A stretch of 26,322 bases of DNA from a virus (IMGVR_UViG_3300045988_013119:1-26322); one strand, 5' to 3'; counted from the stretch's first letter, positions 3,073 to 22,658 are shown. Program-made: numbers and translations. Notes: generated by a model not told the origin, from the sequence alone.

Positions 3073-3097
3073 AAAAACAAGGCCGCGAAAGCGGCCT
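3073..3097 (-). terminator. Rho-independent terminator ending the minus-strand late operon
   Basis: On the minus strand: AGGCCGC-TTTC-GCGGCCT followed by TGTTTTT, downstream of the 46-aa ORF stop. Confidence 0.65.
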
Positions 3098-3109
3098 GTG
3101 ACATGTCAC
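3098..3109. repeat. 12-bp perfect palindrome GTGACATGTCAC, copy 1
   Basis: Exact 12-mer also present at 20382-20393 and 22647-22658. Here it sits between the stop of the 3117-3257 ORF and the terminator hairpin. Confidence 0.9.
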
Positions 3110-3116
3110 GCTCACG

Positions 3117-3257
3117 TTATGACAAGCCTATGTACCCTGCTACACCAGATAATATCAAAATAACTGCAACAGCAAATTCGCCATCGTCAATGATACATTT
3201 ACGGTTCATAACGCCAAGTGCAACAAGCGCAAACACAACAAGAATAAAAGCAATCAT
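3117..3257 (-). CDS. 46-aa small membrane protein (two predicted hydrophobic helices), holin-like candidate
   Basis: ATG with AAGGATGAG RBS 9 nt after the stop of the 824-aa gene. Translation is MIAFILVVFALVALGVMNRKCIIDDGEFAVAVILILSGVAGYIGLS. Absent from the supplied ORF track because of its size. Confidence 0.5.
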   Translation of the reverse strand: MIAFILVVFALVALGVMNRKCIIDDGEFAVAVILILSGVAGYIGLS

Positions 3258-3266
3258 TTCTCATCC

Positions 3267-5741
3267 TTATTGCGGAGTGACATCCTGTGGTCGCCACCAG
3301 TATGTCTGGTTAAACTCTTTCTTCGAACGTTGCTCCATTTTACGCAAATAGCCTGGTGAAAAATACTCCTGCATCTGGTTAAAGATCATGTGATCGAGAG
3401 CCGCCTTTAAGTACCAGAGATTCGCACCTGGCATCAAACCTTTCCCCAGCTTCACCAGATCACCACCAGTCTGCTCACTCTTCCCTTCCACAGCATTTAA
3501 CGGTATGCCCTGAGCAATCTTCACTACGTCATCAACCAGACCAGCTACCGGGCCAAGCATCGACGCCAGCGCGCCGCTTCCGTACCTAGTGTGATCTGAC
3601 AATAAAAAGTCACCGTAAAGGCCAAGACCACCACCTTTCAGTAGAGCACCAAGCCAAAATTTAGCAGCATCTTCTCCTGTCATCTCGCGAGGATTACGAC
3701 CAGACGCAAGGTCGTTAAGTTGCTGCGACAAAGCGCCAAGAATGGTCGTACTGGCAATAAACGTCGCAATATATGCCGCACGCCCACCAGCAGACGGCAT
3801 ACCCATAGCGCGTGACCAGTGACGCATAACTACCGAGATAGGGAACGATTTAAACAGGAAAACACTTCTCGTTAATTCACCTTTCCATGTTCCACGCTGA
3901 ATACCAGAACCGGTTATCAGTTGCTCACGTGCTCCCGGTGTAATAACAGCCATATCAACTTCTTCAGTTACGGCACCGAGAAGTTTACGCATTGCCTCAA
4001 ATTTCACGCGTTCAGGCTCACCAAGATGTTTAACTGCTGAATCAGGGATACGCATAATGCTTTCCGGTGTCAGCATCGTATTATTGCCGTTCCCCCAGTC
4101 CTCCTGTTGCGCCAGCTTCCATACGCTCCAGTCTGTTTCAGTAATCCCTTTGCTTTTCAGGATACGAAAATCAGAGTCATCGAGGCTACGAAGGTCTGGT
4201 GTCCGTGACACTACCTCTCCCAGGCTTCCCATCATTGTTACGCCATAGGCGCGCTTGTGCGCATCTGACCATGCTGTAAGCCCACTGGCACGCATTACCG
4301 CCGTTGCCGCCCAACGAGACACAGACGGCCCCATATTATCCATTGCCCAGCGGTTAACACTGCCAAGTAGAGATTCCATCGCCAGACCAGCGCGGCGCGC
4401 CCGCGCAAGCTCAGTACGGTTCGTTGGGTCCATAGCTTCAAGCTGGTTGCGGAATAACTGGTTCATTGGAAGGTTGGTCACCTTCGCAGACAGATACATG
4501 GTTCCAAGATCAGAGAACGATGACAGCAACGCGGATCCTAGTCGGCTGGCAACCAGCCAGTTGCGGATATTGTCAGACCAGCGCGCGATGTGCGGATTCG
4601 CTACAGGCTGTGTCTTTCCGGAAATAAAGTTGTACAGATTCTCTGTGTTGTTCGCCAGCCGCTCGACTTTACCGGTTTTACTCGGGTTAGCTGTTGCCGT
4701 TTCTGCCTTCACCTGATCAAGAAGAGAGCGGAAAACATGATCGGGGTTTGGGCCATATGTTTCCACCAGTGCAATATCTTTACTGATACCTTCCAGGTGA
4801 CCGACCATGATTTCCCATAGAGAGCGATCGCCATAAAGTTGCTGATATTGCAGATAGGAATCTGCATCTTTGAAATGTATCTGTCGTGATGCATTACCCC
4901 GGTTAGCACGTGCGCCGGAAATTCGCATTCCGGTATCAGTAAGCTTATTCAGCCCACCAGTAGCGATCGTGTTATAAGCCTCTCCAAGAAATGCAGACAA
5001 CTCGGCATCGTTCATCAGTTGTCCATCGACTCGGGTATAATATTTGCGATCCAGCTTACCTATAACATCGCTAACCCACTTATCCTTTGATACCGCCCCA
5101 ACCTTTTCCATAGAATGATGTTGAGGGATCCCCCAGTTTTCGAGATAGCCAATGTCCCCACCAGCATCATTAAACCGGCGGCGCAGTAGCTCTGTCACTT
5201 CTCTCCACGCCTTAGCACCTTTTCTTGCTTTAGCATTGCCAGTATTTTGCCCTCGCATTTCATATACCAGGTCACGCACGCCAGCTTCATCTTCAAACAG
5301 GCCAAAAAAGCGAGGATCAACTGCTTCAAATGCCTCCTGCAATTGACTCAATGCATAATCACGAGTGGCTTTTGTTCTGGATTCAACAGAGAGGAAATTC
5401 GATTTACCGTCTGCATTAAAAGCAATAGTACGGTTAAGAGCGCCAAGTTTCCCATCAGCCCCTTGATAGCTATTGATAAATTTATCCAATCTCTGACGTG
5501 CGGCTATAGTGAGAGCCACACGACGTTTCTTTAATGCCGCTTCTCGCTGTAATTCTTCAGATGCCAATTGTGCTGCACGATACAACCGTTCTGATTCGGA
5601 AAGTTGTCGCCACGACATCGGATCATCACGAGCAATGGAGCGCATATTTCGATAAATGCGGTCTTCAATGTTCTGTATTTCTCGCGCCGTTAACGTGCGC
5701 TGCGCCGCCTGCTGGACCGCTTGTATACATTCCTGTCTCAT
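3267..5741 (-). CDS. Large internal virion (ejection-type) protein, 824 aa
   Basis: Last large ORF of the structural operon, with GAGG RBS. The C-terminal third contains hydrophobic Gly/Ala-rich segments typical of podovirus ejection proteins. Position matches the T7 gp15/gp16 slot. Confidence 0.8.
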   Translation of the reverse strand: MRQECIQAVQQAAQRTLTAREIQNIEDRIYRNMRSIARDDPMSWRQLSESERLYRAAQLASEELQREAALKKRRVALTIAARQRLDKFINSYQGADGKLGALNRTIAFNADGKSNFLSVESRTKATRDYALSQLQEAFEAVDPRFFGLFEDEAGVRDLVYEMRGQNTGNAKARKGAKAWREVTELLRRRFNDAGGDIGYLENWGIPQHHSMEKVGAVSKDKWVSDVIGKLDRKYYTRVDGQLMNDAELSAFLGEAYNTIATGGLNKLTDTGMRISGARANRGNASRQIHFKDADSYLQYQQLYGDRSLWEIMVGHLEGISKDIALVETYGPNPDHVFRSLLDQVKAETATANPSKTGKVERLANNTENLYNFISGKTQPVANPHIARWSDNIRNWLVASRLGSALLSSFSDLGTMYLSAKVTNLPMNQLFRNQLEAMDPTNRTELARARRAGLAMESLLGSVNRWAMDNMGPSVSRWAATAVMRASGLTAWSDAHKRAYGVTMMGSLGEVVSRTPDLRSLDDSDFRILKSKGITETDWSVWKLAQQEDWGNGNNTMLTPESIMRIPDSAVKHLGEPERVKFEAMRKLLGAVTEEVDMAVITPGAREQLITGSGIQRGTWKGELTRSVFLFKSFPISVVMRHWSRAMGMPSAGGRAAYIATFIASTTILGALSQQLNDLASGRNPREMTGEDAAKFWLGALLKGGGLGLYGDFLLSDHTRYGSGALASMLGPVAGLVDDVVKIAQGIPLNAVEGKSEQTGGDLVKLGKGLMPGANLWYLKAALDHMIFNQMQEYFSPGYLRKMEQRSKKEFNQTYWWRPQDVTPQ

Positions 5742-5746
5742 TTAAT

Positions 5747-7549
5747 TTAACCTCTCAAGAAACACGCCACAGCAACATCAAACAGGCTGGAATCCTGTAT
5801 TGCCTGCTCACTTTCCCTGTTCGCTTCATCCAGTACTTCACGCGCACTGCGCGATTGTGGATTACCATCATCATCCAGCACGGTGATTATCATGTCCGGA
5901 GATTCAAGCAGCGAGTCTTCAGCTATACGCAGATCAATATCTCCTGCCGGATCTGCCATCATTTTTTGTTCTGTCTGTTGCAATATCTTACCGGGCTCAA
6001 AAGGAGCTACTTCGTCTGGCGTCCTGACCTCTGCTGTTTTATAGAATGAAACAGCCTGAGCATTAAGTTCACTTTCAGCCTGCTGTCTCCGTGCCAGTTC
6101 TGCTCGAGCTTCAAAAAACTGACCGCCAGGCTCATGCGGTGCCAACGCGTTACGGGAAAATTCCAGGCGTTCTTGTGCCTGCCGGATTCGTTGGTCAATA
6201 TCGCGAATTCTGGCCTGTTTATCTGATCGAGCACGAGACAAAGCTTTACCGCTACCAGTTGGCTCTTCTGCAAGAATTTGTGCGCGCTGTTCAGTGAGAT
6301 TGTCGATAATTCGTTGGCTATTAGCGATTTCAGACTGGTAAACCTGTCTATCGCCACGCGACAAAAGCTGCGCGGCCTGTTCTTCAAGCAACCGATTTTC
6401 TATAGCGCGCGCCGTTTTTCCATCATCTACAGATGACAGAGCCTCATTAACTGCCTGAGAAAGCAGACTCTTGTGCCCAGGGATTTCACTGAAAGATGCA
6501 GACTCAACAATGCTGGCAACGTCTACAGGTCTCCCCTGGCTAACATCAGACATGGCTTTTCGCAGAGCCTGAATGTGAGAATTACGCGAAAGCACGTTGA
6601 TCGGCACGCCAGGAGCAATATCAATTTCAGCATGATGAGCGGCATTCGCCGCCAGTGCAGCATCGATATCAACTGGTGAAAAATTTGGTGCGCTTGTAGA
6701 CTCGCCGCGAGAGTTAATAAATCTGCCGACACCACCAAACGCCACCCCAAGAACAGCATCAATAGCAATTGCCTGTCGATCCAACACATCATACTGGTTA
6801 GCCATTTCGCTATAGCCACCATCACGAAGCGTTTTTGCAGTAAGCCCACGCTGTGCCATACCGAACGCAATATTTGTACCTGCGGCATAGGCAATATCTG
6901 GCGTTGCACGTACTGCTGTTGCTGCGGCGCGTCGCACTGAACTCTCACCCGTCCGCGCAAGCTGAGCCGCCACACCTTCCGCCAGCGCACCACCAGCACG
7001 TAACCCGAGGCTCATAGGGATCAGTGTTCCGGCACCAGCAGTAATGCCCTGCACTAATCCCGCTTCCTGCGCCGTCCTGAAATCAACACCCTGTGCTATC
7101 AGCCGTTCAAACTCAGAAAAACCCTGTAGCGAAGTTACCGCCGCTGCACCTCCGACAGGACCACCGAGCGTTGTACCGACAACAGCCTGCCCGCCCATAT
7201 CGAACAACCCATAAAGAACCTGCCCGGCGGTTCCGGTTGTCGCGGCATCAGGCGTCAGCCGCTTAACCTGCTGCTCTGCTAGTTTTCTCTGCTCGGCAAT
7301 GTATGAAACTGAAGTATCATTGAGCGAGGTGTTTTCGTTAATAAACTGAGCAATCGGGGATACGATTTTATCCATCCCAGCCCATAGCAACTGATCTGGC
7401 TTTGCCACCAGCCCGGAGTACAAACCAGACAATGCCGCTCCTACAGCATTGTCGAAAAAACCAACATCGCTGTTAAAGCCCGCTGGATTTGATGCTGCTT
7501 CGTCAAGTTGCTGATTCTGGTTTACTGGATTAAGGCCAAAGTAACTCAT
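5747..7549 (-). CDS. Internal virion (ejection-type) protein, 600 aa, Gly/Ala-rich
   Basis: Stop overlaps the start of the adjacent upstream gene. The middle region is strongly Gly/Ala-rich and the C-terminus is predicted coiled-coil. Confidence 0.8.
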   Translation of the reverse strand: MSYFGLNPVNQNQQLDEAASNPAGFNSDVGFFDNAVGAALSGLYSGLVAKPDQLLWAGMDKIVSPIAQFINENTSLNDTSVSYIAEQRKLAEQQVKRLTPDAATTGTAGQVLYGLFDMGGQAVVGTTLGGPVGGAAAVTSLQGFSEFERLIAQGVDFRTAQEAGLVQGITAGAGTLIPMSLGLRAGGALAEGVAAQLARTGESSVRRAAATAVRATPDIAYAAGTNIAFGMAQRGLTAKTLRDGGYSEMANQYDVLDRQAIAIDAVLGVAFGGVGRFINSRGESTSAPNFSPVDIDAALAANAAHHAEIDIAPGVPINVLSRNSHIQALRKAMSDVSQGRPVDVASIVESASFSEIPGHKSLLSQAVNEALSSVDDGKTARAIENRLLEEQAAQLLSRGDRQVYQSEIANSQRIIDNLTEQRAQILAEEPTGSGKALSRARSDKQARIRDIDQRIRQAQERLEFSRNALAPHEPGGQFFEARAELARRQQAESELNAQAVSFYKTAEVRTPDEVAPFEPGKILQQTEQKMMADPAGDIDLRIAEDSLLESPDMIITVLDDDGNPQSRSAREVLDEANRESEQAIQDSSLFDVAVACFLRG

Positions 7550-10059
7550 TGCGGAATATCTCCGGAGAATCTCTGACGCTTCTGTGTCAGATCAAGAACA
7601 ACAGGAGAACCATCATCTTTCAGCAGATAACCAGTACCAAGTTTCACCAGGTACTGACTATCGCCGTAACTTTGCAAACCATACTGACCAGGCGGTGTTT
7701 TTATCCCGGTGCCGACAACTTGTTCATTCCAAGCCTGATTAACCTGCTTATCGAATTGCTCTGCAGACATTCCCCACGGCAAAAGGACATTCCCCATTCC
7801 GTTATAGTCATGCACGCCACCTGTAGCTACGTTAACAGCCTGTTTCCAGATATCAGTGTCAATTTCGCCTGATATCACGCCTTTTTTCGCCATCACACCA
7901 GCGTAATAGTCCTTTGCGATCTCGTATGCCATTGATGCCCCCTGAGCATCACCAGCAAATGCATCCTTCACCATGTCAGAAAACTCAAGGCGAAGATCAG
8001 CATCTTTAGGCATCGGAATACCTTTCGCATCATCAGTACCTTTACGAGCCGCCGCGCCAGCAAGAATTGTCTGCGCAGCGGTTTCAGGAGACACGGAAAC
8101 ATCCGGATTAAACCAGTTTTTTTCTGCCAAAATACCACCAGGCTTGTCCATCAGTATCCCGGCAACGGCAGCAGATGGAGCGTTGGCACTGATCTGCTGT
8201 AGTGCTGACATATACACCTGCCCACCACCAGTGCTCTGCCTGATGGTATCGAGATATGCTGCCTGTTGAGAAACTGGAGCATCACGAAAGAAAACACCGA
8301 TCTGATTGGCCTCGTCTTTGGAAAAGAACGTCAGTGGAGTGCCATATGACTTAGCAAGGTCACTGACCTGAGCGGCACGCAAGGCAACGCTATGTCCAAA
8401 GTTATCCTTATTGCTCATGTCGATAGGCTTTGCCTGTCCGGAGGCAAGAGAGAACTGCACAGGATCCGACTGCCGCTGCTTTATCACCTGATTTGCAGCC
8501 GAAACAACGTTGTCATAAAGAGCTGCGCGAGACGCATAACCCTCCCCTGTCTCACCAGTATCCGGGCGTAATTGCTCAACATATGCTGTAATGCTGCTTG
8601 TCGGCATGTTGCGGAAAGAGCCTATATACTGTCCGGCGATCTGCGTATTCTTAAACTCGGTATATCGCAGGTTTCCTTCTCTGACTCCATAAGCTGCAAT
8701 AAAATCATCCTCACCAGGTGGGTTAGGAAATTCAACGCCACGCATATACGCAGCTGTCGCATCGCGAACCTGGCTGTCAATCATCGTTTTATATTCATCC
8801 TGCTGCTGCCGACGCAGTTGATCCGCCTGTCGCATAAAACTTGCCTGCGCCTCAGAAGATGCCGCATCGAATGCTGCATTACCGGTATAGCGTTTGGTGT
8901 TGGTTGGAATTGTTGATAAACCAAGTGCTGCACTGACACCAGCAGTTAACTGCTGATCACTGTATGGCTGGCTACCGTTCTCATGATGGATAATGGCTGC
9001 ACAAAGCGCCTTCAGGGTATCAGGATTTGATGCATCGAGAGGCTCATCAGCAGAAACGCCAAGTTGTTCGCACACTGCTTTGATATACGACATAGTGTCA
9101 TTTTTATCAGTGGGCGGTGCCCAGCGATTAATTATCTCGCTGACGGTATCAATACCCTGCCTATGATACGACATCAGGTTCCGCCCTAATGCACGAATCC
9201 CGTGTTCAGGTGTTTCGAATTTAGCAAATCGACCATCATCACCGGTCTGGCCTACCCACGGATTAGTTTTGCTGTATTCGAGATTTCCTGGGTTATTGTT
9301 GCGTATGCCACGGGCACGATCGGAAGAGTCACTATCGGCTACAGCACGGCGAGCTCCAGCAGCAGTATCACTTAACTCGCCATTACTTTGGATGAATGCG
9401 GTCGCATTGTTTGCCGACCACTGGGACAATGCGGCATCAGCAACCTTCTCTTTAAACTCGATTTTCTTGGCCTGGATTTGCTCGTCGCTCCAGCCATGCG
9501 CAATGCCGTAATCCTCAATTTGCTGGAAAGTTTGCTTATTAGCCAATACGTATGCGGCGTTGTCGCCATACAATGCTGCGGCATTTTTACCATTGTTCAG
9601 CAGCGTAGCCTGAAACTGACCTTCTTCGTAGGCATTTATTTGCCCTATCTCGTGCCGCCCGGCCTGCGTAGTGAACTGAATACGCTGCTGCTGCGCCTGC
9701 TGCATGAAAGCATTACGAGCCTGTTCATCCGGCAGCGACATAGCCAGTTGTTCGACCTGAGCATCAAACTGCTGCGTATACTCCTGACCTTTTCCAATAG
9801 CATTTTTCCCTTTCAGGTTAAGCAAACCTGTTTCAGGGTTATTCAGCAGATCGCTGCTTATCTGGCTTAAGCTAAGAGAAGCATCCTGAGCCATAGCAAC
9901 ATTCGCGCGCTGTTTTGCCTGCGCAATAATACCTGCATATTGCTCTGCAACATCGCCAAGTACATCACCGACATTTGGTGTCTGAAACGATGAGAATCCC
10001 TGCGTCGAAATCCCTCTGCTCTGAACCTGACGGCCCGATGTTGTTGGTACAACTGGCAT
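7546..10059 (-). CDS. Large internal virion protein, 837 aa, with a conserved-looking central domain (GIRNNNPGNLEYS...INRWAPP)
   Basis: AAGGGGA RBS upstream. Its size and position fit a virion protein; the central motif looks like a conserved enzymatic or structural domain, but I cannot name it from memory. Confidence 0.8.
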   Translation of the reverse strand: MPVVPTTSGRQVQSRGISTQGFSSFQTPNVGDVLGDVAEQYAGIIAQAKQRANVAMAQDASLSLSQISSDLLNNPETGLLNLKGKNAIGKGQEYTQQFDAQVEQLAMSLPDEQARNAFMQQAQQQRIQFTTQAGRHEIGQINAYEEGQFQATLLNNGKNAAALYGDNAAYVLANKQTFQQIEDYGIAHGWSDEQIQAKKIEFKEKVADAALSQWSANNATAFIQSNGELSDTAAGARRAVADSDSSDRARGIRNNNPGNLEYSKTNPWVGQTGDDGRFAKFETPEHGIRALGRNLMSYHRQGIDTVSEIINRWAPPTDKNDTMSYIKAVCEQLGVSADEPLDASNPDTLKALCAAIIHHENGSQPYSDQQLTAGVSAALGLSTIPTNTKRYTGNAAFDAASSEAQASFMRQADQLRRQQQDEYKTMIDSQVRDATAAYMRGVEFPNPPGEDDFIAAYGVREGNLRYTEFKNTQIAGQYIGSFRNMPTSSITAYVEQLRPDTGETGEGYASRAALYDNVVSAANQVIKQRQSDPVQFSLASGQAKPIDMSNKDNFGHSVALRAAQVSDLAKSYGTPLTFFSKDEANQIGVFFRDAPVSQQAAYLDTIRQSTGGGQVYMSALQQISANAPSAAVAGILMDKPGGILAEKNWFNPDVSVSPETAAQTILAGAAARKGTDDAKGIPMPKDADLRLEFSDMVKDAFAGDAQGASMAYEIAKDYYAGVMAKKGVISGEIDTDIWKQAVNVATGGVHDYNGMGNVLLPWGMSAEQFDKQVNQAWNEQVVGTGIKTPPGQYGLQSYGDSQYLVKLGTGYLLKDDGSPVVLDLTQKRQRFSGDIPQ

Positions 10060-10071
10060 CTTATTATCCCC

Positions 10072-10611
10072 TTATCGACCGGTTGGAGTGCCAACAGCAG
10101 CAGAAATCGGCGCAGCCTTCTGAGAGAACGGGCTCCACGTTCCGCCGCCCATCTGGTATGCACCGTATGCTTTTAGTGGTGCCGTTAACAAAGTGCTGGT
10201 CATCGATGATTTAGCAGCCGACTGAGCAGCAGCCCCCTGTGCCTGAGCATTCATTCCCTGAACCTGATACCCATATGCCTCACGCTGAGCATTATTCACT
10301 GTCGTTAACGCATCAAGAGTGCCGAACTGAGCATTATCCGCAAAAACGTCAAGAGCTGTTCCGCTACTTAATTCCGCACCGGTAGCCCCCATAGTGGCCG
10401 CCGCAGTGCCTGAGCGTTGACGCATTTCACGACGACGCTGATCCGCTTCAATATTCCCACGATTGATTGAATCCTGTGCCTGAACTTCAGCAATTTCAGC
10501 ATTCCGATCAGCTATGGCTGACTGGTATTTTGCCTGCTTGCTCTGGCTGTACATTGACGCGGCTGTGGATGCCACTGTGACGGCAACCAAAGCGATGGCT
10601 GGGTTACACAT
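10072..10611 (-). CDS. Internal virion protein with N-terminal transmembrane helix, 179 aa
   Basis: Hydrophobic N-terminus (PAIALVAVTVASTAASMY) followed by an Ala/Gln-rich region. Translationally coupled to the upstream gene. Position matches the T7 gp14 slot. Confidence 0.75.
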   Translation of the reverse strand: MCNPAIALVAVTVASTAASMYSQSKQAKYQSAIADRNAEIAEVQAQDSINRGNIEADQRRREMRQRSGTAAATMGATGAELSSGTALDVFADNAQFGTLDALTTVNNAQREAYGYQVQGMNAQAQGAAAQSAAKSSMTSTLLTAPLKAYGAYQMGGGTWSPFSQKAAPISAAVGTPTGR

Positions 10612-14474: not shown

Positions 14475-14485
14475 ATACACTCCTG

Positions 14486-14507
14486 CAATAAAGGGGCCGA
14501 AGCCCCT
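14486..14507 (-). terminator. Intra-operon hairpin with U-tract (AGGGGC-TTCG-GCCCCT then TTTATT on the minus strand), possible attenuator
   Basis: GC-rich 6-bp stem with a 4-nt loop followed by a T-rich tract, between the 111-aa and 107-aa genes. Confidence 0.35.
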
Positions 14508-14524
14508 TGTCGGATTCGCGAGGC

Positions 14525-14860: not shown

Positions 14861-14870
14861 CGATATCACC

Positions 14871-15308
14871 TTAACCAGTTACTTTTGAGCGGATCGGGTA
14901 CGGCGTATTGGCATCAACATCCAGACTGATACCCGCAGTGAATTTGCCGGCCGTTAGTGGGCCAGTTGCGACGGAGTAGTTAACACGCAGATATCGCTGA
15001 ACACCGGCTGGCACCTTTGCAGAAACAACTCGCTTACCTGCTGTCAGGGTGGCCTTTGCCAACGCACCACTATCATAAATAGTGGTCCAAGAGCTGTTAT
15101 TCTCACTCGTCTGCAACTGGATGTTTACAGTTGCCTCACCACTTGCCGTGGCGGCTTCGTTAACCAGCACCCAAAACTCAAGCGGGTAACCCACACCGAT
15201 ATCGCGACGGTTTCCATCAATTGGACCGAGATCGATTACGTCAGTAGAAGCCGCGGTATTCGTAACCGCCTGAGCTTCGGAGAACATCAACAGTTTGTCG
15301 GTGATCAT
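14871..15308 (-). CDS. Candidate capsid decoration/accessory protein, 145 aa
   Basis: Immediately downstream of the major capsid gene. Composition suggests a beta-rich fold. Preceded by a stem-loop (GTGGGTC-N6-GACCCAC) and GGAG RBS. Confidence 0.7.
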   Translation of the reverse strand: MITDKLLMFSEAQAVTNTAASTDVIDLGPIDGNRRDIGVGYPLEFWVLVNEAATASGEATVNIQLQTSENNSSWTTIYDSGALAKATLTAGKRVVSAKVPAGVQRYLRVNYSVATGPLTAGKFTAGISLDVDANTPYPIRSKVTG

Positions 15309-15359
15309 CTTCTTTCTCCATTAGTGGGTCTGTTACGACCCACAGGTTAATAACAGGCG

Positions 15360-16346: not shown

Positions 16347-16360
16347 TGTCATTTCCTCTC

Positions 16361-17062
16361 TTATTTGCCATAGAGCACTTCGGCCGCACTACGCTGGCCT
16401 TCATTACCACCGGTGACCATGCCATCTTCAGACATCGCCTTTCCGATTTTCACGAACGTTTTGACCAGGTCAGGGTGATTACCCAGTCCGGTGGTGTTCA
16501 GATATTCTTTGAGTTCAGGTGTCCCGAACTGGTCAAGCGCACGCTGTGCGGCGCTAAGGTTAGAAATCAACTTGTCGCCACCGATTTCTTTGTCAGCTTT
16601 TACATCCGCAGCCCACTGCTCGGTTGTTTTCTGCCAGGCTTCTGCCTGGCGCTGCTGAACACCTGCCAGAATCTTCGGATAAGCATCAACCAGCTTTTGC
16701 GCTTGCTCGTTGGTCAGGTTTAGTTCTCGCGCCACCGGCTCGAATTCCTTCAACGCTTCTGTATCCAGCTCTACGCCTTCGGCAGCCTGAAACTCGTACT
16801 TCTCAGGCGCACCCTCTGGTTTATCGCCGCCCTTTTTTTCATCCTGCTTATCGTTTTCAGGCTTTTTGTCATCAGCAGGTTTATCGCCATCAGAAACAGG
16901 TTGTGGCTTATCACCTTCCTGTTGTGATGGATCACCAACTGGAGCAGGGTTATCATCTGCATGCGCTGACGGTTCTGACGCAGCCGGAGCTGCCCCACCA
17001 TCGACTTGTTGCTCATTGCAAAGACGGCGATACAGCAAACGCTCAAATAAACTCATGATCAC
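16361..17062 (-). CDS. Scaffolding protein, 233 aa
   Basis: Highly acidic, Lys/Asp/Pro-rich low-complexity N-terminal half (DKPQPVSDGDKPADDKKPENDKQDEKKGGDKPEG) and helical C-terminal half, between portal and capsid genes. Confidence 0.7.
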   Translation of the reverse strand: MIMSLFERLLYRRLCNEQQVDGGAAPAASEPSAHADDNPAPVGDPSQQEGDKPQPVSDGDKPADDKKPENDKQDEKKGGDKPEGAPEKYEFQAAEGVELDTEALKEFEPVARELNLTNEQAQKLVDAYPKILAGVQQRQAEAWQKTTEQWAADVKADKEIGGDKLISNLSAAQRALDQFGTPELKEYLNTTGLGNHPDLVKTFVKIGKAMSEDGMVTGGNEGQRSAAEVLYGK

Positions 17063-17355
17063 TCCTGTTCACTGGCCTCTTTGGCCATCTTCAAATACTG
17101 TTCAGGGCAATGCGCCATAACGCGCTGAAACAGTTCCAGCGCCAGATTGCGTTGCCCCTCATTAAATGCCATTGCCATAGCATCCATCGGAGAGATAGCG
17201 GAAAACACCCGGCCTTTCTCCAGCACCGACCAGACAACGCGACGCCCCTGTTCACTGCTCATGACAAAGCGAATGTCATCAATTTCACGCTGTGCCATGT
17301 CACGTTGCTTACGGGCGTTTTCTTCTTTCAGTTGATCGTCTTCGTAATCTGTCAT
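17059..17355 (-). CDS. Small protein between portal and scaffold genes, 98 aa
   Basis: Four-nt overlaps with both neighbours, consistent with translational coupling. Confidence 0.7.
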   Translation of the reverse strand: MTDYEDDQLKEENARKQRDMAQREIDDIRFVMSSEQGRRVVWSVLEKGRVFSAISPMDAMAMAFNEGQRNLALELFQRVMAHCPEQYLKMAKEASEQE

Positions 17356-19031
17356 TGTGATTGCCCACCCTGACCACTAACTGCATTCGCCATAGCTGAC
17401 AACACACTCGGATCCGAAGTTTTAGCTTCGCTTAGCGTCTTGGCCCCCTGTGCCGCCGCCATCCCCATCGCCATCATTTGTTGCTGCTGTTGTTGCTGTG
17501 CCCGTTGCTGGCGAGCCTGCTCAACCTGTTCCTGCGGAACAATGACGGTTGGAGACACTCCGGACATATCAGCGAATGCATCGATCGCCTGATCAACGTT
17601 GAGTTTGTCGAGAGCTTCTGGTTTCGCTTGCGCAAGTTGACCAATGAAGTTAACCGTGGACGCCAGACTGGACAGGCCGATAGACTTCTGCGCCTGAGCC
17701 ATGACGGAAATGTATTCGACCTTCAGGGGCATGCCTTCCATCGCGTCAGGCGGTGGCGGCAGCATGTTTTTGCGCACCATCATCGAGAAAGCGCGGTCAA
17801 TGAGAGGATTAAGACATTCGTCGTTCAGACGCTCCAGAACCGGCCCCAACATCAGAAGTTTTTCTTCTTTCATTTCGATCACCGCTTCAACAGGCATCGA
17901 GCGGGTATTGATGTTCTGCAACATCATGAACAGATCGACAAAGTAGGCGCTGTTAATGATTTGACGAGTGTCCTGAATGTCTGCCACCAAATCTGCTGTA
18001 CTGGGGTTAACCAGATAAGCAGGCCTGAAGCCATCCTGACCAGTAATCTGATCGATATACGTGATGTCGCCAGGAAGAAGGGAGGCGCGCTGATTCTTGA
18101 GGGAAGTCGGAGCAACCATCGGCGGATTGGTGGCTTTATCAATCAACTGCGACTTGCGCTTCTGGAGAAGCTGCAATGCCTTAACAGGTCCAAGCGCCAG
18201 CATACCCGGGCATGATGATCCATAAACATCTTCGCCGTTAACTTCCCAGCGCGGAGCCATAATTGGAAACTCATCGAATCCGGACTCACGCAACAACTTG
18301 TCGTTATCTCCACCAACCTCGTAATAAACCGATTTGAATGGCTTGTTCTTGCTATCCAGCTTCGATGTATCGCGGTCAATGTTCGGGTAAACCGAATGCA
18401 TCACTTCGATCCACTTCTCGTAGGTGCCGCTTTCCCACATGCTTTTTACGGATTCGCTGACGTTATTTAGCCCGAACTCCTGAACAAGCTGACGAACAGT
18501 CATAGAGAACTTGCGAAAACAGGTGTCAACACTGCCACGAGGTGAGTTAGCCAGGTAGTAACTGCCTATCGGGAATGGCATTGTGCGAATGATGTCCTCG
18601 TCATCCTCCAGCACTGCCATTGCACCAGTGCTGTATGTGCCGAGGCTTCCGTATAACTGCGGAAGAGACTGGTAGAGATTCGACTTATTGAACATATCGT
18701 TCATGCGGTTCTGAACTGCCTCAAGCCACAACTTAACAGGGCCATAATCCATCATTTCAGGATCTGGCGTAGCCAGGCGAAACCACGGACGCGCGGGGCT
18801 TGTGATGCCTGACATCATGCCGCTGGCGAGAGTGCGCGCCGCCATAGTCCCGGTCGAATCAATAATGCGTGTATTGCGCCGATCGTTACGGTTGGCCTCA
18901 GAAGTCAGAAAGCGGGAACCACGCGGGTTGATGTAATCACTCAACTCGCGCCAGTGCGGCTCGAACGACTGACGCTCGCTTTCAAGTTGTGCGAACTGTT
19001 TGTTCAATCGCTCTTTAGTTGTTTCCGCCAT
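17352..19031 (-). CDS. Portal protein, 559 aa
   Basis: Large ORF immediately upstream of scaffold and capsid with GGAG RBS. The Gln/Ala/Gly-rich C-terminal tail (QQRAQQQQQQQMMAMGMAAAQG) resembles the T7 gp8 C-terminus by memory. Confidence 0.8.
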   Translation of the reverse strand: MAETTKERLNKQFAQLESERQSFEPHWRELSDYINPRGSRFLTSEANRNDRRNTRIIDSTGTMAARTLASGMMSGITSPARPWFRLATPDPEMMDYGPVKLWLEAVQNRMNDMFNKSNLYQSLPQLYGSLGTYSTGAMAVLEDDEDIIRTMPFPIGSYYLANSPRGSVDTCFRKFSMTVRQLVQEFGLNNVSESVKSMWESGTYEKWIEVMHSVYPNIDRDTSKLDSKNKPFKSVYYEVGGDNDKLLRESGFDEFPIMAPRWEVNGEDVYGSSCPGMLALGPVKALQLLQKRKSQLIDKATNPPMVAPTSLKNQRASLLPGDITYIDQITGQDGFRPAYLVNPSTADLVADIQDTRQIINSAYFVDLFMMLQNINTRSMPVEAVIEMKEEKLLMLGPVLERLNDECLNPLIDRAFSMMVRKNMLPPPPDAMEGMPLKVEYISVMAQAQKSIGLSSLASTVNFIGQLAQAKPEALDKLNVDQAIDAFADMSGVSPTVIVPQEQVEQARQQRAQQQQQQQMMAMGMAAAQGAKTLSEAKTSDPSVLSAMANAVSGQGGQSQ

Positions 19032-19045
19032 TTCAATGACTCCGG

Positions 19046-19252
19046 TTACTGACCAAGCAGCGTTTTACCGCTGGTATTAGCGGTTGATGTGTCGCCCTGA
19101 GAACCGGTAAGCAGCGTAGAACTACGACCAGCAGCAGCGCGACGGCGACGTGTTTCTTCGTCGCGGGCATCAACAACGGCAGCATCCTGCTCCTGTGGTG
19201 CTGCCTGAACTTCTGGTGTTGCAGGCACTGATGGTGAGCTACCCATGCACAT
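19046..19252 (-). CDS. Small hypothetical protein, 68 aa, upstream of portal
   Basis: ATG at 19252 with GGAG 8 nt upstream. Its start context (CGGAGTCATTGA then ATG) duplicates the portal start context at 19033-19044, which supports a real translation start. Confidence 0.5.
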   Translation of the reverse strand: MCMGSSPSVPATPEVQAAPQEQDAAVVDARDEETRRRRAAAGRSSTLLTGSQGDTSTANTSGKTLLGQ

Positions 19253-19341
19253 ATCAATGACTCCGTACGCAATTAAATTATTACCAATTTAACCACATAT
19301 GATTTATTTATCGTAGATAGTTGACATTTAACGCGCGAATT

Positions 19342-19358
19342 ATTACCTTTCAGGTAAC
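19342..19358. promoter_or_regulatory. Operator-like inverted repeat ATTACCTTTCAGGTAAC (copy C)
   Basis: Shares ATTACCTT-N3-GGTAA with copies A and B. A perfect TTGACA hexamer lies at 19321-19326, and the 10-mer AATTATTACC is also present at 19276-19285. Confidence 0.4.
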
Positions 19359-19679
19359 TAAAGAGTTCATTCCGGTTACTAACCTGACTGGCTTGTCGTT
19401 AAATTGAACAGGTGGAGTGAGCTTTTATTTTGAGCAGTACGGCGTATGGCACATGCGACGATAGCGGTCTGGATACGTTTAAGGGGCACCCTCCCTTGCT
19501 CGGGCAAACGAACCAGGTAGCCGGAATGTGCAAGTCGAGCGGTTTTATTCCGCGCACGGGGATTCACCATCCCGGCGATTCGGTGTGACGCCTCGGAAGA
19601 GACGAGGGTACAACGATGAGAGCATTTATGGAGCCGCGACAAAGTGTGGTGCCTTAACAGGCTAAGTGCTCTCAGCGTT

Positions 19680-19756
19680 GTGGCATTAGCTCAGTTGGAC
19701 AGAGCAACCGCCTTCTAAGCGGTTGGTCGCAGGTTCGAATCCTGCATGCCACGCCA
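19680..19756 (+). tRNA. tRNA-Arg (anticodon UCU), phage-encoded, argU-like core with a divergent acceptor stem
   Basis: Cloverleaf read by hand: acceptor GTGGCAT/ATGCCAC, D-arm GCTC-AGTTGGACA-GAGC, anticodon arm ACCGC-CTTCTAA-GCGGT (anticodon TCT), variable TGGTC, T-arm GCAGG-TTCGAAT-CCTGC, discriminator G, encoded CCA. Confidence 0.85.
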
Positions 19757-19799
19757 GAATCACGCCTAAGGACCGTGATGCCAGAAGTTCCAGGGGCTT

Positions 19800-19841
19800 G
19801 GCGGTGATGGTTTCCCTTGAAGGACTATCACCGCCCTTTTT
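19800..19841 (+). terminator. Terminator downstream of the tRNA (GGCGGTGAT ... ATCACCGCC then CTTTTT)
   Basis: 9-bp perfect stem with an 18-nt loop followed by a T-run. Confidence 0.5.
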
Positions 19842-19919
19842 ACAGCAGGACGCCATTGCGATGACTTCATGCTGTAAACCAGTACAGCCACGGAAGGCAT
19901 AACTCATTGCTTCCAGTTC

Positions 19920-19943
19920 GCCCGGTTCGCCGGGCATTTTTTT
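19920..19943 (+). terminator. Strong hairpin plus U-tract (GCCCGG-TTCG-CCGGGC then ATTTTTTT) abutting the RBS of the 140-aa ORF; terminator or attenuator
   Basis: 6-bp GC stem with a UUCG tetraloop and 7 T. Only about 11 nt separate the T-run from the ATG at 19955. Confidence 0.6.
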
Positions 19944-19954
19944 AAGGTGAGATT

Positions 19955-20377
19955 ATGAAGACAATTGATATGTTGGCTAAGTATCTAAATGAATGGCCAT
20001 TAAAATATTCTCGTATCGTTCAGGCTGAAGACTGCGTTTTTTATGGCGTTTTTGCTGGTAATGAAATGCATTACGAAGTAATTCAGAGTGAGGGACTGAC
20101 CGGGTTAACTCTTAGCGAAGACCATGGTACTAGCGTTACGTTCCATGACTGGATAACAGCACAACGTTCTGAAATGGAAAAAGGCGATGTGTTTGATATT
20201 TCTCGCTCTGTATACGCCAAAGAAAAAAGTGATGATGATTACATGCGCGAAAACTTATACAACATGAAGTTACAATGCCTGGCTGAAGTGCTTAGTAAAA
20301 GATCTTTACTTGATGTGGTTGGTGCTGAGCAGGACGCCAAGGCAATCAACGCCGCATTCGATAAAATAACCTTCTAA
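19955..20377 (+). CDS. Hypothetical soluble protein, 140 aa, on a cargo locus between terminase and portal
   Basis: AAGGTGA RBS. The ORF looks AT-rich by eye and is transcribed opposite to the late operon. It has its own terminator and no hydrophobic segments. I recognise no homology. Confidence 0.75.
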   Translation: MKTIDMLAKYLNEWPLKYSRIVQAEDCVFYGVFAGNEMHYEVIQSEGLTGLTLSEDHGTSVTFHDWITAQRSEMEKGDVFDISRSVYAKEKSDDDYMRENLYNMKLQCLAEVLSKRSLLDVVGAEQDAKAINAAFDKITF

Positions 20378-20381
20378 CGCA

Positions 20382-20393
20382 GTGACATGTCAC
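20382..20393. repeat. 12-bp perfect palindrome GTGACATGTCAC, copy 2
   Basis: Exact 12-mer 5 nt after the TAA stop of the 140-aa ORF and 4 nt before the terminator hairpin. Confidence 0.9.
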
Positions 20394-20396
20394 AAA

Positions 20397-20424
20397 CAGC
20401 CAGCCGATGAGCTGGCTTTGTTTT
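20397..20424 (+). terminator. Rho-independent terminator (AGCCAGC-CGATGA-GCTGGCT then TTGTTTT)
   Basis: 7-bp stem and T-rich tail between the convergent 140-aa ORF and the terminase large subunit gene. Confidence 0.65.
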
Positions 20425-20467
20425 ATCCTCATCAGAGGATATCAACGACATTATCCCCACCAGCGGA

Positions 20468-21943
20468 TTAAGCATAGGGATCGTAATCTGTGATGGCCTT
20501 GCCTTGCTGGTTCTGCTGACCGGGAATTCGCAGACGCTTCGACACAGGGAACGCAAACGTCAGCAGTAGCGCATCGCCTTTACCAGGAGAACGCCCAAGC
20601 CGCTCCTTGATATCTTCCTTCTGTTCGATAATGATTTTACCGTCCACGCGAACTTTGTACTCTGCCGCCGACAGGTCGTCCGCTGTTTCCTGGTCATCCA
20701 GCATGCCGCCCAGCCTCAGCCATGTCTTGCATGAATTGAACATCTCCCCACGCTTGTTGAGCATCTGCGGGTCAGTAGACGCGCCACCGAACGGAACAAG
20801 TTGCCATGTACGACCCCATCCGTCACCGATTGACTTCAAACCGGTTCCGTAACCGAAGTCGATGAACACCGCGTCAGCCTGATACTGGTCTTCAAAGTCA
20901 GCGATACGCTTTGCCATAATCAGATCGTCAGTGGTCTTGTTGCCAGTCCACAGCACCTTACTGTGCAGCCCCTGCCGCAGGTATATCACAGCGTCATCAA
21001 CGCCTGAGTATGCCGGGTCAACGCCGATTATCACCGGAGCATGTGCAACCTGCGCAGCGGTGACCACCCGTTTCATTGCCTCGTCAGTAAGTCCGGTAGG
21101 GATAAACTGCAATTCAGATGCATCCGGGAATATGCCGCGCACACGGATTTTAACGAAGTCGCTGTCTTCCCCGTAGTCATCAACCCATTTCTGCAACTGC
21201 TGTTTGTTGGTGCCTTCCACCGTCCGGCTGTCAATCTGCGCAGTTTTCCAGCGGTGTTTATATTTGCGGAAACATTCGCGGAAACGTCCGGTATTACGCG
21301 TCGGGTTTCCGAACGCCACCCAGATAATCTCAGTGTCTTCGTCCGTTAGCGCACCCTCGGCAACTTCCCACACCAGATCCGCAATGTTCGACGCTTCATC
21401 GAATACCACGATGATGCGTTTGCGCTCGTTGTGTAGTCCGGCGAATGCCTCAGTGTTGTGCTCAGACCAGGGTATTGCGTCAGCTCGCCACCGCTTGTCG
21501 TGTCCAGGATCATTGCTGTACATCGCGGTAGCGGTACAGGTAAACCAGTCTTTCGTGATAGCAAGGTTCGACCACTTGATAATTTCCGGCCAGGTCTTCG
21601 TTCGTAGCTGGTTGTCGGTGTTGGCGGTCACCACAACCTTACAATCCTCGCAAGTGGACATGCCCCAGTTGATCAGCATTGAGATGAATGCGGATTTACC
21701 AATACCGTGACCCGAAGCGCGTGCCAGCATAAGCGGCTGATAGCGCGTCTCTGGATTCTGCAGGTGATCACGTATCTCTCGGAACGCATCAGCCTGCCAC
21801 TGACGTGGACCGGTGGCATGTGCCAGTTCAGTCCCATCTTCCCCCCACGGGAACGCATAGAGGGCATAGCCAAGCGGATCGTGAGTGAACCCTGCAATAT
21901 CCTCGATTAACTGCTCTTCAGGAGATAACGCTGTATCTGTCAC
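20468..21943 (-). CDS. Terminase large subunit, 491 aa
   Basis: P-loop-like SGHGIGKS, Walker-B-like IIVVFDEAS, a C-terminal nuclease-type region (VIIGVDPAYSG), and a four-nt overlap with the small subunit gene. Confidence 0.9.
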   Translation of the reverse strand: MTDTALSPEEQLIEDIAGFTHDPLGYALYAFPWGEDGTELAHATGPRQWQADAFREIRDHLQNPETRYQPLMLARASGHGIGKSAFISMLINWGMSTCEDCKVVVTANTDNQLRTKTWPEIIKWSNLAITKDWFTCTATAMYSNDPGHDKRWRADAIPWSEHNTEAFAGLHNERKRIIVVFDEASNIADLVWEVAEGALTDEDTEIIWVAFGNPTRNTGRFRECFRKYKHRWKTAQIDSRTVEGTNKQQLQKWVDDYGEDSDFVKIRVRGIFPDASELQFIPTGLTDEAMKRVVTAAQVAHAPVIIGVDPAYSGVDDAVIYLRQGLHSKVLWTGNKTTDDLIMAKRIADFEDQYQADAVFIDFGYGTGLKSIGDGWGRTWQLVPFGGASTDPQMLNKRGEMFNSCKTWLRLGGMLDDQETADDLSAAEYKVRVDGKIIIEQKEDIKERLGRSPGKGDALLLTFAFPVSKRLRIPGQQNQQGKAITDYDPYA

Positions 21944-22536
21944 TGATTACCATCCTGACGTTCTTTGAGTCGCTTCCTGGCTGCTGCTATGCGATCAGCA
22001 ATTGTCACATTCACATTAACATCCAGACGTTCTTTGAATGCGTTGACATCAACATGCTTACCAATCAGCTCAAGGTTCTTCACCTTGTCAGGCCATTTAA
22101 TTTTTTTGAGGATTGTCTCTATTGAATCCTCGTTCATGTTCATGATGGTCGATGACAGATCAAAGCCACTAAGCGTAGTGCGCCAGATTTTCGGCCACTC
22201 ACGGATTGGTTTAAGGCTCCCATCGTCGTTGAGGATGTCGATCACGTCCATCTGGTCGATCTCCACCAGGCGCATGAGAACGTAATCAGCACTGACACGC
22301 ATTCGTTTGTTGCGCTCCTCCATCAACTCGGCAATCCGTTTCTGAATGCGTTCATCGCGCATCATGACACTGGCTTTAACTGCCGCTGTATTTGGGGAGA
22401 ATCCTGCGTTAATCGCAGCCTGAGTCTGGTTTTCAGGCGTTTTGATGTATGACTGGCAATAAGCCTCCTGCATTGCTGTGAGCGGCTTAAATTGCGTTGA
22501 TTTGCGTTTATAGGTTTTAGGTTCAGCAGGCATCAT
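21940..22536 (-). CDS. Terminase small subunit, 198 aa
   Basis: Start moved to the ATGATG at 22536; the track's TTG at 22614 would run through the terminator-like hairpin. The N-terminus (KPLTAMQEAYCQSYIKTPENQTQAAINAGFSPNTA) has the typical small-terminase pattern. Confidence 0.8.
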   Translation of the reverse strand: MMPAEPKTYKRKSTQFKPLTAMQEAYCQSYIKTPENQTQAAINAGFSPNTAAVKASVMMRDERIQKRIAELMEERNKRMRVSADYVLMRLVEIDQMDVIDILNDDGSLKPIREWPKIWRTTLSGFDLSSTIMNMNEDSIETILKKIKWPDKVKNLELIGKHVDVNAFKERLDVNVNVTIADRIAAARKRLKERQDGNQ

Positions 22537-22579
22537 AACCACCGTGGTAATTGTTACCGTTGTGGTAATAGTACCATGC

Positions 22580-22605
22580 AAAATAAAGCCGCCATAGTTG
22601 GCGGC
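22580..22605 (-). terminator. Terminator-like hairpin (GCCGCC-AACTAT-GGCGGC then TTTATTTT on the minus strand) immediately upstream of the late operon
   Basis: 6-bp GC stem and U-tract between the early-region genes and the small terminase start, like a lambdoid tR-prime/antitermination arrangement. Confidence 0.5.
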
Positions 22606-22646
22606 AGTATTCAAAATCCATCAAATTCATCATGCATAATCTACTC

Positions 22647-22658
22647 GTGACATGTCAC
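22647..22658. repeat. 12-bp perfect palindrome GTGACATGTCAC, copy 3
   Basis: Exact 12-mer overlapping the stop codon of the 22655-22993 gene, about 40 nt upstream (in the transcription direction) of the hairpin at 22580-22605. Confidence 0.9.

What the first reader, a model, noticed from the sequence alone, without database searches (positions are those of the whole stretch)
3098..22658. Perfect 12-bp palindrome GTGACATGTCAC recurs three times, always just upstream of an intrinsic terminator
Exact copies lie at 3098-3109, 20382-20393 and 22647-22658. A given 12-mer is expected roughly 0.003 times in 26 kb on both strands, so three copies are not chance. Each copy sits within a few nucleotides of a stop codon and is followed, in the transcription direction, by a hairpin plus U-tract (3073-3097 minus, 20397-20424 plus, 22580-22605 minus). 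The three sites mark the end of the tail operon, the end of the terminase-portal cargo gene, and the early/late junction upstream of terminase. Such a palindrome-terminator element could be a binding site for a phage regulator controlling termination or readthrough, an RNA processing signal, or a recombination boundary for cargo exchange. A one-mismatch copy (GTGCCATGTCAC, 17292-17303) lies inside a coding region and is probably incidental.
Basis: seen in the sequence. Interest (0 to 1): 0.62.

Follow-up and report, generated by a model that had tools for sequence, protein, structure and literature searches.

The report
Phage regulator's binding site at operon ends
The repeated 12-base palindrome is real, and it is most likely the DNA docking site of a small uncharacterised phage protein whose own gene ends inside one copy; this protein-and-site pair recurs in many unrelated phages.

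Summary
GTGACATGTCAC occurs exactly three times in the window (0 expected). Each copy lies next to a stop codon and upstream of an intrinsic terminator.

The window is an epsilon15/phiV10-like (Uetakevirus) prophage. The three sites are conserved at the same places in phiV10, epsilon15, SPN1S and Tyrion. Core columns are 35/36 invariant; flank columns are 31/120.

The main finding concerns the 112-aa Cys-rich protein whose TGA stop lies inside copy A (22655-22996, minus). It belongs to an unannotated family (no Pfam match, 213 clusters). Its confident AlphaFold model resembles ribbon-helix-helix DNA binders.

The motif GTGAC-N2-GTCAC follows this gene into unrelated phages:
- Pectobacterium myovirus ZF40
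- N15 and phiKO2
- a Yersinia P2-like phage
- Vibrio and Aeromonas phages
- metagenomic contigs

In at least six lineages the motif overlaps the gene's stop codon. Controls without the gene have none.

Best reading: the palindrome is this protein's operator. In this genus it sits at transcription-unit boundaries, where the protein probably acts on elongating RNA polymerase, as a roadblock or insulator with possible self-regulation. Binding and the direction of the effect are untested.

The half-sites equal those of matS (MatP), but the spacer is one base shorter and no sequence homology to MatP was detected. The terminator link is specific to this genus.

The parts
22647..22658 (.). Palindrome copy A (GTGACATGTCAC). 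It overlaps the TGA stop of the family gene and lies at the junction of the early operon and the terminase genes.
   Evidence: Exact in 75 of 79 close relatives. Same place in epsilon15, SPN1S and Tyrion, with a 1-mismatch copy in phiV10.
22655..22996 (-). Gene for the 112-aa candidate binder (ATG at 22993). It has an N-terminal basic helix, a predicted ribbon-helix-helix core and a C-terminal Cys-rich knuckle (C79, C82, C91, C99). It corresponds to epsilon15 gp49, phiV10 p55 and N15 gp46.
22580..22605 (-). Intrinsic terminator after copy A (GCCGCCAACTATGGCGGC followed by TTTATTTT).
   Evidence: Conserved in relatives.
20382..20393 (.). Palindrome copy B, between the convergent terminase-large gene and the cargo gene.
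   Evidence: Exact in 52 of 61 relatives. It is the constant edge of a variable cargo slot.
20398..20425 (+). Bidirectional-looking terminator next to copy B (AGCCAGCCGATGAGCTGGCT followed by TTGTTTTA).
19955..20377 (+). Cargo gene (140 aa, phrog_4846) that ends 4 nt before copy B.
   Evidence: Relatives carry at least 7 alternative genes at this place.
3098..3109 (.). Palindrome copy C, at the end of the long structural operon.
   Evidence: Core 12/12 invariant with flanks 0/40 identical in five genomes.
3072..3097 (-). Intrinsic terminator that abuts copy C (AGGCCGCTTTCGCGGCCT followed by TGTTTTTA).
3117..3257 (-). Last gene of the structural operon, a 46-aa membrane protein equivalent to phiV10 p21. 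Its stop lies 7 nt before copy C.
   Evidence: Sequence. phiV10 annotation.
17292..17303 (.). One-mismatch copy GTGCCATGTCAC inside a coding region. It is probably incidental and not part of the system.
   Evidence: Present in phiV10 but absent from epsilon15.

Best explanation
The palindrome is the DNA recognition site (general form GTGAC-N2-GTCAC) of the small protein encoded at 22655-22996 on the minus strand. This protein is a previously undescribed phage ribbon-helix-helix protein with a C-terminal zinc-ribbon-like knuckle, and it presumably binds as a dimer.

In epsilon15/phiV10-like phages the sites lie at the 3' boundaries of transcription units:
- the end of the early operon, which is the protein's own stop codon
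- the terminase/cargo junction
- the end of the structural operon
- in Salmonella members only, a decaying fourth site at the end of the lysis genes

Each site lies just before an intrinsic terminator.

The most likely mode of action is on elongating RNA polymerase rather than on promoters. The bound dimer would act as a roadblock or insulator that limits readthrough between modules. Because one site covers its own stop codon, it would also limit its own synthesis, as Lac repressor does at O3.

Shown: the conservation of the motif, its linkage to the gene and the fold prediction. Inferred: binding itself, the dimer and the negative sign of the effect.
For: Not chance, and under selection:
- 3 exact copies against 0 expected.
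- The same three syntenic sites occur in phiV10, epsilon15, SPN1S and Tyrion. Core columns are 35/36 invariant against 31/120 flank columns.

Gene-site linkage across unrelated phages:
- ZF40 (67% identical protein): 3 exact copies, one 2 nt after the gene's stop.
- N15 and phiKO2 (35%): GTGACTGGTCAC three times at syntenic places, one over the TGA stop.
- Yersinia P2-like phage: 2 sites.
- Vibrio K303 and L102 (31-38%): 3 sites each.
- Aeromonas phage (33%): variant GTGACCGGACAC three times next to the gene.
- Metagenomic members at 27-36% identity: the motif lies over the stop codon in L094, L096, L100 and (with 1 mismatch) L098, and over the start in L095.

Statistical and control checks:
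- An unbiased scan of all inverted repeats with 5-nt arms ranks GTGAC-N2 first or joint first in the window, epsilon15, ZF40 and K303.
- 22 of 80 pieces (about 9 kb each) recovered through the 14-mer alone carry the gene, often with the site at its 3' end.
- Controls without the gene have none: BcepC6B 42 kb, N15 left arm 19 kb, E. coli K-12 55 kb.

Protein:
- The AF2 model has pLDDT 92.
- There are weak RHH_5 and RepB Pfam hints.
- Basic residues R8 and R13 are conserved.

Elongation-level action:
- Sites lie at stop codons, between cistrons, inside ORFs and before terminators, not at recognisable promoters.
- There is a precedent of an operator at the 3' end of its own gene: LacI forms a roadblock at O3 (PMC3711431 abstract).
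Against: No binding experiment exists.

A roadblock placed just upstream of a terminator seems redundant, and nothing here gives the sign of the effect.

One short contig with a family gene has no site (L101). In the Yersinia phage the sites are 3.3 kb from the gene.

It is unknown when the protein is made; its gene lies in an operon expected to be silent in the lysogen.

58 of 80 loci found through the 14-mer show no family gene in the stored piece, and the rest of those contigs could not be read.
Confidence: 0.55

Rival explanations
1. Same protein and DNA site, but a positive effect. The protein loads onto RNA polymerase from sites just before terminators and suppresses termination locally, as a Q-like antiterminator without processivity. 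This would let early transcription enter the terminase genes and let structural-operon transcription continue.
For: The layout 'regulator gene, then site, then terminator, then late genes' at site A resembles lambda Q-PR'-tR'. A weak promoter-like match uses the palindrome's GTGACA as the -35 element (epsilon15, SPN1S and Tyrion have GTGACA-17-TAAATT). The palindrome precedes the terminator in the direction of transcription at 14 of 15 sites. A Cys-rich domain could contact RNA polymerase. In N15 one site lies upstream of the leader terminator of the antirepressor operon.
Against: At site B the palindrome follows the terminator in the late-gene direction, so it would only help a cargo gene read antisense into the terminase gene. 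Sites inside repA (N15) and inside ZF40 ORFs are hard to explain by antitermination. There is no similarity to any Q family. RHH proteins are nearly always repressors (general knowledge). A separate extended -10-like element with a repressor-type operator lies after terminator A, so the terminase genes probably have their own promoter.
Confidence: 0.15
2. The element works as RNA. The transcript forms a small hairpin (GUGA-CNNG-UCAC) that the protein's arginine-rich N-terminus binds. Binding would control termination where a terminator follows, or translation where a ribosome-binding site follows.
For: Every site is in transcribed sequence. Many sites lie 9-19 nt before a start codon: N15 gene 47, L100, the L005-type insert, K303 (twice), L102 and Aeromonas (twice). 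Others abut terminator hairpins. The N-terminal AERKxxQRxR helix looks like an arginine-rich motif.
Against: The hairpin is only 4 bp, with a free energy of -1.2 kcal/mol, and no flank extends it. The fifth base of each arm is invariant although it could not pair. The predicted fold is that of double-stranded-DNA binders. No Rfam family matches. Full dyad symmetry, including a palindromic centre in this genus, is what a dimer on duplex DNA requires.
Confidence: 0.1
3. The sites have a DNA-organising or segregation role, not a transcriptional one. They would form a phage version of MatP/matS, or would be bound by host MatP. Dispersed sites would bridge or position phage DNA, or exclude host SMC complexes.
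For: The half-sites are identical to matS, GTGACRNYGTCAC (PMC6907758). MatP-matS is among the top structural matches and has the longest alignment. All hosts of family-bearing phages seen are Enterobacterales, Vibrio or Aeromonas. The family occurs in plasmid-prophages such as N15, phiKO2 and K303, which carries ParA. K303 also has one 13-bp site of matS type.
Against: The spacer is 2 bp, not 3, in every site of every lineage. hhalign against E. coli MatP gives a probability of 0.2%. The prophage integrates at guaA, outside Ter (PMC9782041). The tight placement at stop codons and terminators is not explained. In N15 the true SopB centromeres are a different motif.
Confidence: 0.1
4. The palindrome is mainly a recombination boundary, a linker at which cargo genes are swapped. 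The neighbouring gene merely hitch-hikes.
For: At site B, at least 7 different reverse-oriented genes follow the constant terminator-palindrome block, each with its stop exactly 4 nt from the palindrome. At site A some relatives have an extra ORF that begins 9 nt after the palindrome. Site C borders a variable moron and antirepressor region.
Against: Twelve base pairs is too short for homologous exchange, and no dedicated recombinase is linked. The motif is equally conserved where no cargo varies, for example inside N15/phiKO2 repA and inside ZF40 ORFs. Conserved functional elements naturally form the edges of variable regions.
Confidence: 0.07

Closest known systems
Ribbon-helix-helix repressors and their inverted-repeat operators (Arc, Mnt, CopG, omega, ParG, RHH antitoxins)
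   Same: The proteins are small. The model shows an extended strand followed by two helices after a basic N-terminus, and the target is a short dyad-symmetric DNA site. The best structural matches are RHH proteins.
   Different: No sequence-profile membership was found. The protein carries an extra C-terminal Cys-rich knuckle. The operators are not at promoters but at stop codons, cistron junctions and terminators. The strand region varies while the outer half-sites are invariant, which suggests that the conserved N-terminal helix reads GTGAC.
MatP / matS of E. coli
   Different: The site is 12 bp with an N2 spacer, against 13 bp with an N3 spacer. No sequence homology was detected. The four-helix bundle and coiled coil are absent. 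The sites are in a phage, not in the Ter macrodomain.
Lac repressor at O3 (roadblock autoregulation at the 3' end of lacI)
   Same: The operator overlaps the 3' end of the regulator's own gene, so the bound protein can stop polymerase before the stop codon is transcribed (PMC3711431).
   Different: The protein family is different. Here the arrangement is conserved across many phage lineages and is repeated at other unit ends. The function has not been demonstrated.
Lambda Q / qut / tR' late-gene switch
   Same: A regulator gene lies immediately upstream of a site, then a terminator, then the late genes. The protein contains Cys residues.
   Different: There is no Q homology. There are three sites, two of them without any promoter. 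A separate promoter-like element lies downstream of the terminator.
N15 SopB dispersed centromeres
   Same: Several short palindromes are scattered over a phage genome and bound by one phage protein. N15 carries both systems.
   Different: The N15 SopB sites are GCGACC-N2-GGTCGC, a different motif at different places. The window has no ParA or ParB.

Membership tests
Ribbon-helix-helix DNA-binding proteins | Strand-helix-helix fold that pairs into a two-stranded ribbon | tested here: inconclusive
Ribbon-helix-helix DNA-binding proteins | Match to a curated RHH sequence family | tested here: not met
   No Pfam or NCBIfam hit passes its cut-off. There are only weak RHH_5 (2 of 73 members, E 0.013), RepB-RCR_reg and YbfE-like hits.
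Ribbon-helix-helix DNA-binding proteins | Sequence-specific binding to repeated or inverted DNA half-sites | not testable with these tools
   Only co-occurrence of the gene and the motif was shown.
MatP / matS | 13-bp site GTGACRNYGTCAC | tested here: not met
   All sites have a 2-bp spacer, giving 12 bp. The consensus is taken from PMC6907758.
MatP / matS | Protein homologous to MatP | tested here: not met
   hhalign gives a probability of 0.2%. There is only a weak fold match to 3vea_B.
Lambda-type Q antitermination module | Q-family protein, with its binding element inside a late promoter that is followed by a terminator | tested here: not met
   No Q-family match was found. The promoter-like match at site A is weak (9/12), and sites B and C have none.
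N / nut (boxB) RNA hairpin antitermination | Stable RNA stem-loop recognised by an arginine-rich peptide | tested here: not met
   The 12-mer folds to a 4-bp stem at -1.2 kcal/mol. No boxA-like partner was looked for.
Host extragenic palindromes (REP/BIME type) | Abundant in the host chromosome, independent of phage genes | tested here: inconclusive
   There are 0 copies in 55 kb of E. coli K-12, including the guaA attachment region. The motif follows a phage gene across seven host genera. The whole chromosome was not scanned.
ParB/SopB centromere sites | Sites bound by a partition protein encoded with a ParA ATPase | tested here: not met
   No ParA or ParB was found among the window proteins that were scanned, which were the early region and the cargo genes. 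Not all window ORFs were scanned. In N15 the SopB-type repeats are a different motif.
Roadblock autoregulation (LacI-O3 type) | Operator at or over the 3' end of the regulator's own gene | tested here: met
   The stop codon lies inside the site in the window, epsilon15, SPN1S, Tyrion, phiV10, N15, phiKO2, L094, L096, L100 and L098.
Roadblock autoregulation (LacI-O3 type) | Bound protein truncates its own transcript | not testable with these tools
   This needs transcript 3'-end mapping and tmRNA-tagging assays.

The most novel reading that the evidence does not exclude
The protein is a new kind of elongation-stage regulator that works from DNA sites placed at stop codons and immediately before intrinsic terminators. 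It would set how much polymerase crosses each module boundary, including the early-to-late junction, in epsilon15-like phages. Its GTGAC half-sites and RHH core reflect common ancestry with the chromosomal MatP/matS system.
Probability: 0.2. Interest if true: 0.8.

Novelty: new variant of a known kind. Interest (0 to 1): 0.62.

Why it matters
How epsilon15/phiV10-like phages time and insulate their operons is not known. These phages include serotype-converting and O157-typing phages.

This work pairs an unannotated protein family (213 clusters, no Pfam entry) with a precise 12-bp site. It gives exact coordinates to mutate and a gene to delete.

The pair is portable across podo-, myo- and siphoviruses and across plasmid-prophages. 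It would therefore be a general regulatory module and a useful annotation rule: GTGAC-N2-GTCAC over a TGA stop flags the gene.

The identity of the half-sites with matS raises a testable evolutionary link to a chromosome-organising protein. The constant palindrome-terminator block also marks cargo slots where accessory genes are exchanged.

Tried and rejected
- **Genome end or cos site.** The phiV10 record starts inside copy A. This is only the depositor's numbering after the last gene's stop codon.
- **The 'repressor' sites annotated in epsilon15.** These are a different motif, TTACC-N5-GGTAA.
- **N15 SopB centromeres.** These are a different motif, GCGACC-N2-GGTCGC.
- **MatP homology.** Rejected by hhalign.
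- **Promoter function of the palindrome.** Only site A has a weak match. Sites B and C have none in either direction (and inspection of the sequence).
- **Known RNA families.** No Rfam family covers the sites.
- **Sequence search of the PDB.** Nothing significant, with a single sequence or with a profile.
- **First AF2 run.** It used a shallow alignment, gave pLDDT 64 and was discarded.
- **Orientation of the central dinucleotide as a DNA-versus-RNA test.** Uninformative, because a palindrome gives the same stem from either strand.
- **Residue differences behind the Aeromonas half-site variant.** None are obvious.

Could not be done:
- The afdb50 fold library was unavailable.
- The epsilon15 genome paper (PMC2698709) is not held.
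- No held paper contains the 12-mer.
- The 'gp46' seen in a telomere-phage lysogen proteome could not be matched to this family.
Full report
**Observation**

GTGACATGTCAC occurs exactly at 3098, 20382 and 22647. No dinucleotide-preserving shuffle gave a single copy. The only near copy, at 17292, has one mismatch and lies in a coding region.

Reading the sequence with the ORF list gives the following positions:
- Copy A contains the TGA stop of the minus-strand gene 22655-22996.
- Copy B starts 4 nt after the TAA of the plus-strand gene 19955-20377.
- Copy C starts 7 nt after the TAA of a 46-aa minus-strand gene (3257-3117).

A consensus scan finds hairpin-plus-T-tract sites at 22605-22588 (-), 20398-20417 (+) and 3097-3080 (-). 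The one refinement is that terminator A lies 41 nt from the palindrome.

**Where the window comes from**

The window is an epsilon15/phiV10-like (Uetakevirus) prophage, with the late genes on the minus strand.

The same 12-mer sits at the same three places in four relatives:
- E. coli phiV10, where copy A has one mismatch
- Salmonella epsilon15
- Salmonella SPN1S
- Enterobacter phage Tyrion

This holds although the intergenic flanks have diverged. In ungapped comparison of five genomes, 35 of 36 core columns are invariant against 31 of 120 flank columns. At site C the figures are 12/12 core and 0/40 flank.

A one-sided terminator accompanies 14 of 15 sites. The two Salmonella phages have a decaying fourth copy over the Rz stop codon, at the end of the lysis genes. 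In 80 IMG/VR relatives, site A is exact in 75 of 79 and site B in 52 of 61. No extra copies occur elsewhere in 1.5 Mb.

**The decisive lead**

The gene that ends inside copy A encodes a 112-aa protein, MAKSAAERKAAQRARQ...CGKCG...CPC...C.
- It has no Pfam or NCBIfam family and belongs to phrog_536.
- Every database name for it is 'hypothetical'.
- The family is small: 213 clusters at 50% identity.

Homologues occur in phages with unrelated virion modules, and the motif travels with them.

| Phage or contig | Protein identity | Sites found |
|---|---|---|
| Pectobacterium myovirus ZF40 | 67% | three exact copies, one 2 nt after the gene's stop |
| N15 and phiKO2 | 35% | GTGACTGGTCAC three times at syntenic places, one over the TGA stop; flanks diverged |
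| Yersinia P2-like phage | 39% | two sites 33 bp apart |
| Vibrio K303 and a Vibrio contig | 31-38% | GTGAC(G/A)CGTCAC three times each |
| Aeromonas phage | 33% | variant GTGACCGGACAC three times within 2.6 kb, one 13 nt before the gene |
| Metagenomic members L094, L096, L100, L098 | 27-36% | motif over the stop codon (one mismatch in L098) |
| Metagenomic member L095 | 32% | motif over the start codon |

Further checks agree:
- A blind count of all inverted repeats with 5-nt arms puts GTGAC-N2 first or joint first in the window, epsilon15, ZF40 and K303. In N15 it ranks just after the SopB repeats.
- In the reverse direction, a scan for the 14-mer TGTGACATGTCACA returned 80 pieces of about 9 kb. 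Of these, 22 carry the family gene, often with the site at its 3' end, and 47 of 82 instances lie in contexts homologous to family-bearing phages.
- Controls lacking the gene have no site: BcepC6B (a structural relative), the N15 left arm and 55 kb of E. coli K-12.

**The protein**

With a 73-member alignment, AlphaFold gives a confident model (pLDDT 92). It shows a basic helix at 5-19, an extended segment at 22-29, helices at 30-42 and 52-74, a Cys knuckle and a short terminal helix.

The outer half-sites are invariant across the family, while the central two bases vary. In the protein, R8 and R13 of the N-terminal helix are conserved, while the strand segment varies. I infer that the N-terminal helices read GTGAC and that the ribbon lies over the centre. 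This is not shown.

**What it most likely does**

The sites are not at recognisable promoters. They lie at stop codons, between cistrons 9-19 nt before start codons, inside ORFs (N15/phiKO2 repA and two ZF40 genes) and before terminators. That pattern fits a protein that meets elongating polymerase.

In this prophage the three sites close three units: the early operon, the terminase/cargo junction and the long structural operon. The late operons appear to have their own promoters with repressor-type operators, TTACC-N5-GGTAA at 22554 and 19343.

I therefore favour a roadblock or insulator that limits readthrough between modules. It would also throttle its own gene, because polymerase stopped at site A has not yet transcribed the stop codon. 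The known parallel is LacI at O3 (PMC3711431).

My estimates are about 0.75 that the palindrome is this protein's DNA site and about 0.35 that the action is a negative roadblock.

**Rivals**

- *Local antitermination.* This fits the order 'site then terminator'. It fails at site B in the late-gene direction and at intragenic sites.
- *RNA hairpin.* The stem is only 4 bp at -1.2 kcal/mol, and the predicted fold is that of duplex-DNA binders.
- *matS resemblance.* The half-sites are identical, the consensus being GTGACRNYGTCAC. However, the spacer is always one base shorter, hhalign finds no homology to MatP, and the phage integrates at guaA.
- *Recombination signal.* The palindrome is the constant edge of variable cargo, with at least 7 alternative genes at site B, each with its stop 4 nt away. 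But 12 bp is too short, and the motif is equally conserved where nothing varies.

**Novelty and verdict**

No held paper contains the 12-mer, and the family has no annotation.

This is a new variant of a known kind, a small dimeric repressor-type protein with an inverted-repeat operator. It is unusual in three ways:
- The operator is built into the gene's own stop codon.
- The sites are placed beside terminators.
- The half-sites equal matS.

The finding is real and biologically meaningful. The mechanism still needs experiments.

Noticed in passing
window 1247-1428 (+): Rfam finds isrK (1247-1323) and C4 antisense RNA (1342-1428). This is a P1-type immI antirepressor control module, and it converges on palindrome C. 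N15 has the same pair, and one of its GTGACTGGTCAC sites lies about 66 bp upstream of that operon's start.
   Followed up: partly
window 1103, 1196, 2237, 19343, 22554: A second dispersed palindrome family, TTACC-N5-GGTAA, is present. It is of the same type as the sites annotated 'repressor' in epsilon15. The copy at 22554 follows an extended -10-like TGgTACTAT (22577-22569, minus) between terminator A and the terminase genes. This suggests that the late operons have their own repressor-controlled promoters.
   Followed up: partly
window 19955-20393 and loci L005-L084: This is a hypervariable cargo slot. The terminase-terminator-palindrome side is constant. At least 7 different reverse-oriented genes follow in relatives, each with its stop codon exactly 4 nt from the palindrome.
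   Followed up: partly
L005, L010, L017, L033 (about 10339-10560): Some close relatives carry an extra small ORF inserted directly after palindrome A. Its RBS-like gaaggtg and its ATG lie 9 nt after the palindrome.
   Followed up: no
window 19680-19756 (+): A tRNA-Arg (anticodon TCT) lies between the terminase and portal genes. It overlaps the 83-aa minus-strand ORF 19686-19937, so that ORF call is doubtful.
   Followed up: no
L091 6769 (Vibrio phage K303): One 13-bp GTGACACCGTCAC fits the matS consensus. It sits beside the phage's three 12-bp sites.
   Followed up: no
window 21940-22614 (-): The long TTG-start reading of the small terminase gene (as annotated in phiV10) would begin upstream of terminator A. 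The shorter start used in epsilon15 is more plausible.
   Followed up: no
window 24188-24718 (-): A Mom-like DNA modification protein is encoded in the early region (phrog_1384; the Pfam Mom match is below its cut-off).
   Followed up: no
L088 14479, 16930, 22124, 26561 (N15): The four GCGACC-N2-GGTCGC repeats were recovered. They are presumably the dispersed SopB centromeres, and they are distinct from the GTGAC-N2-GTCAC sites.
   Followed up: partly
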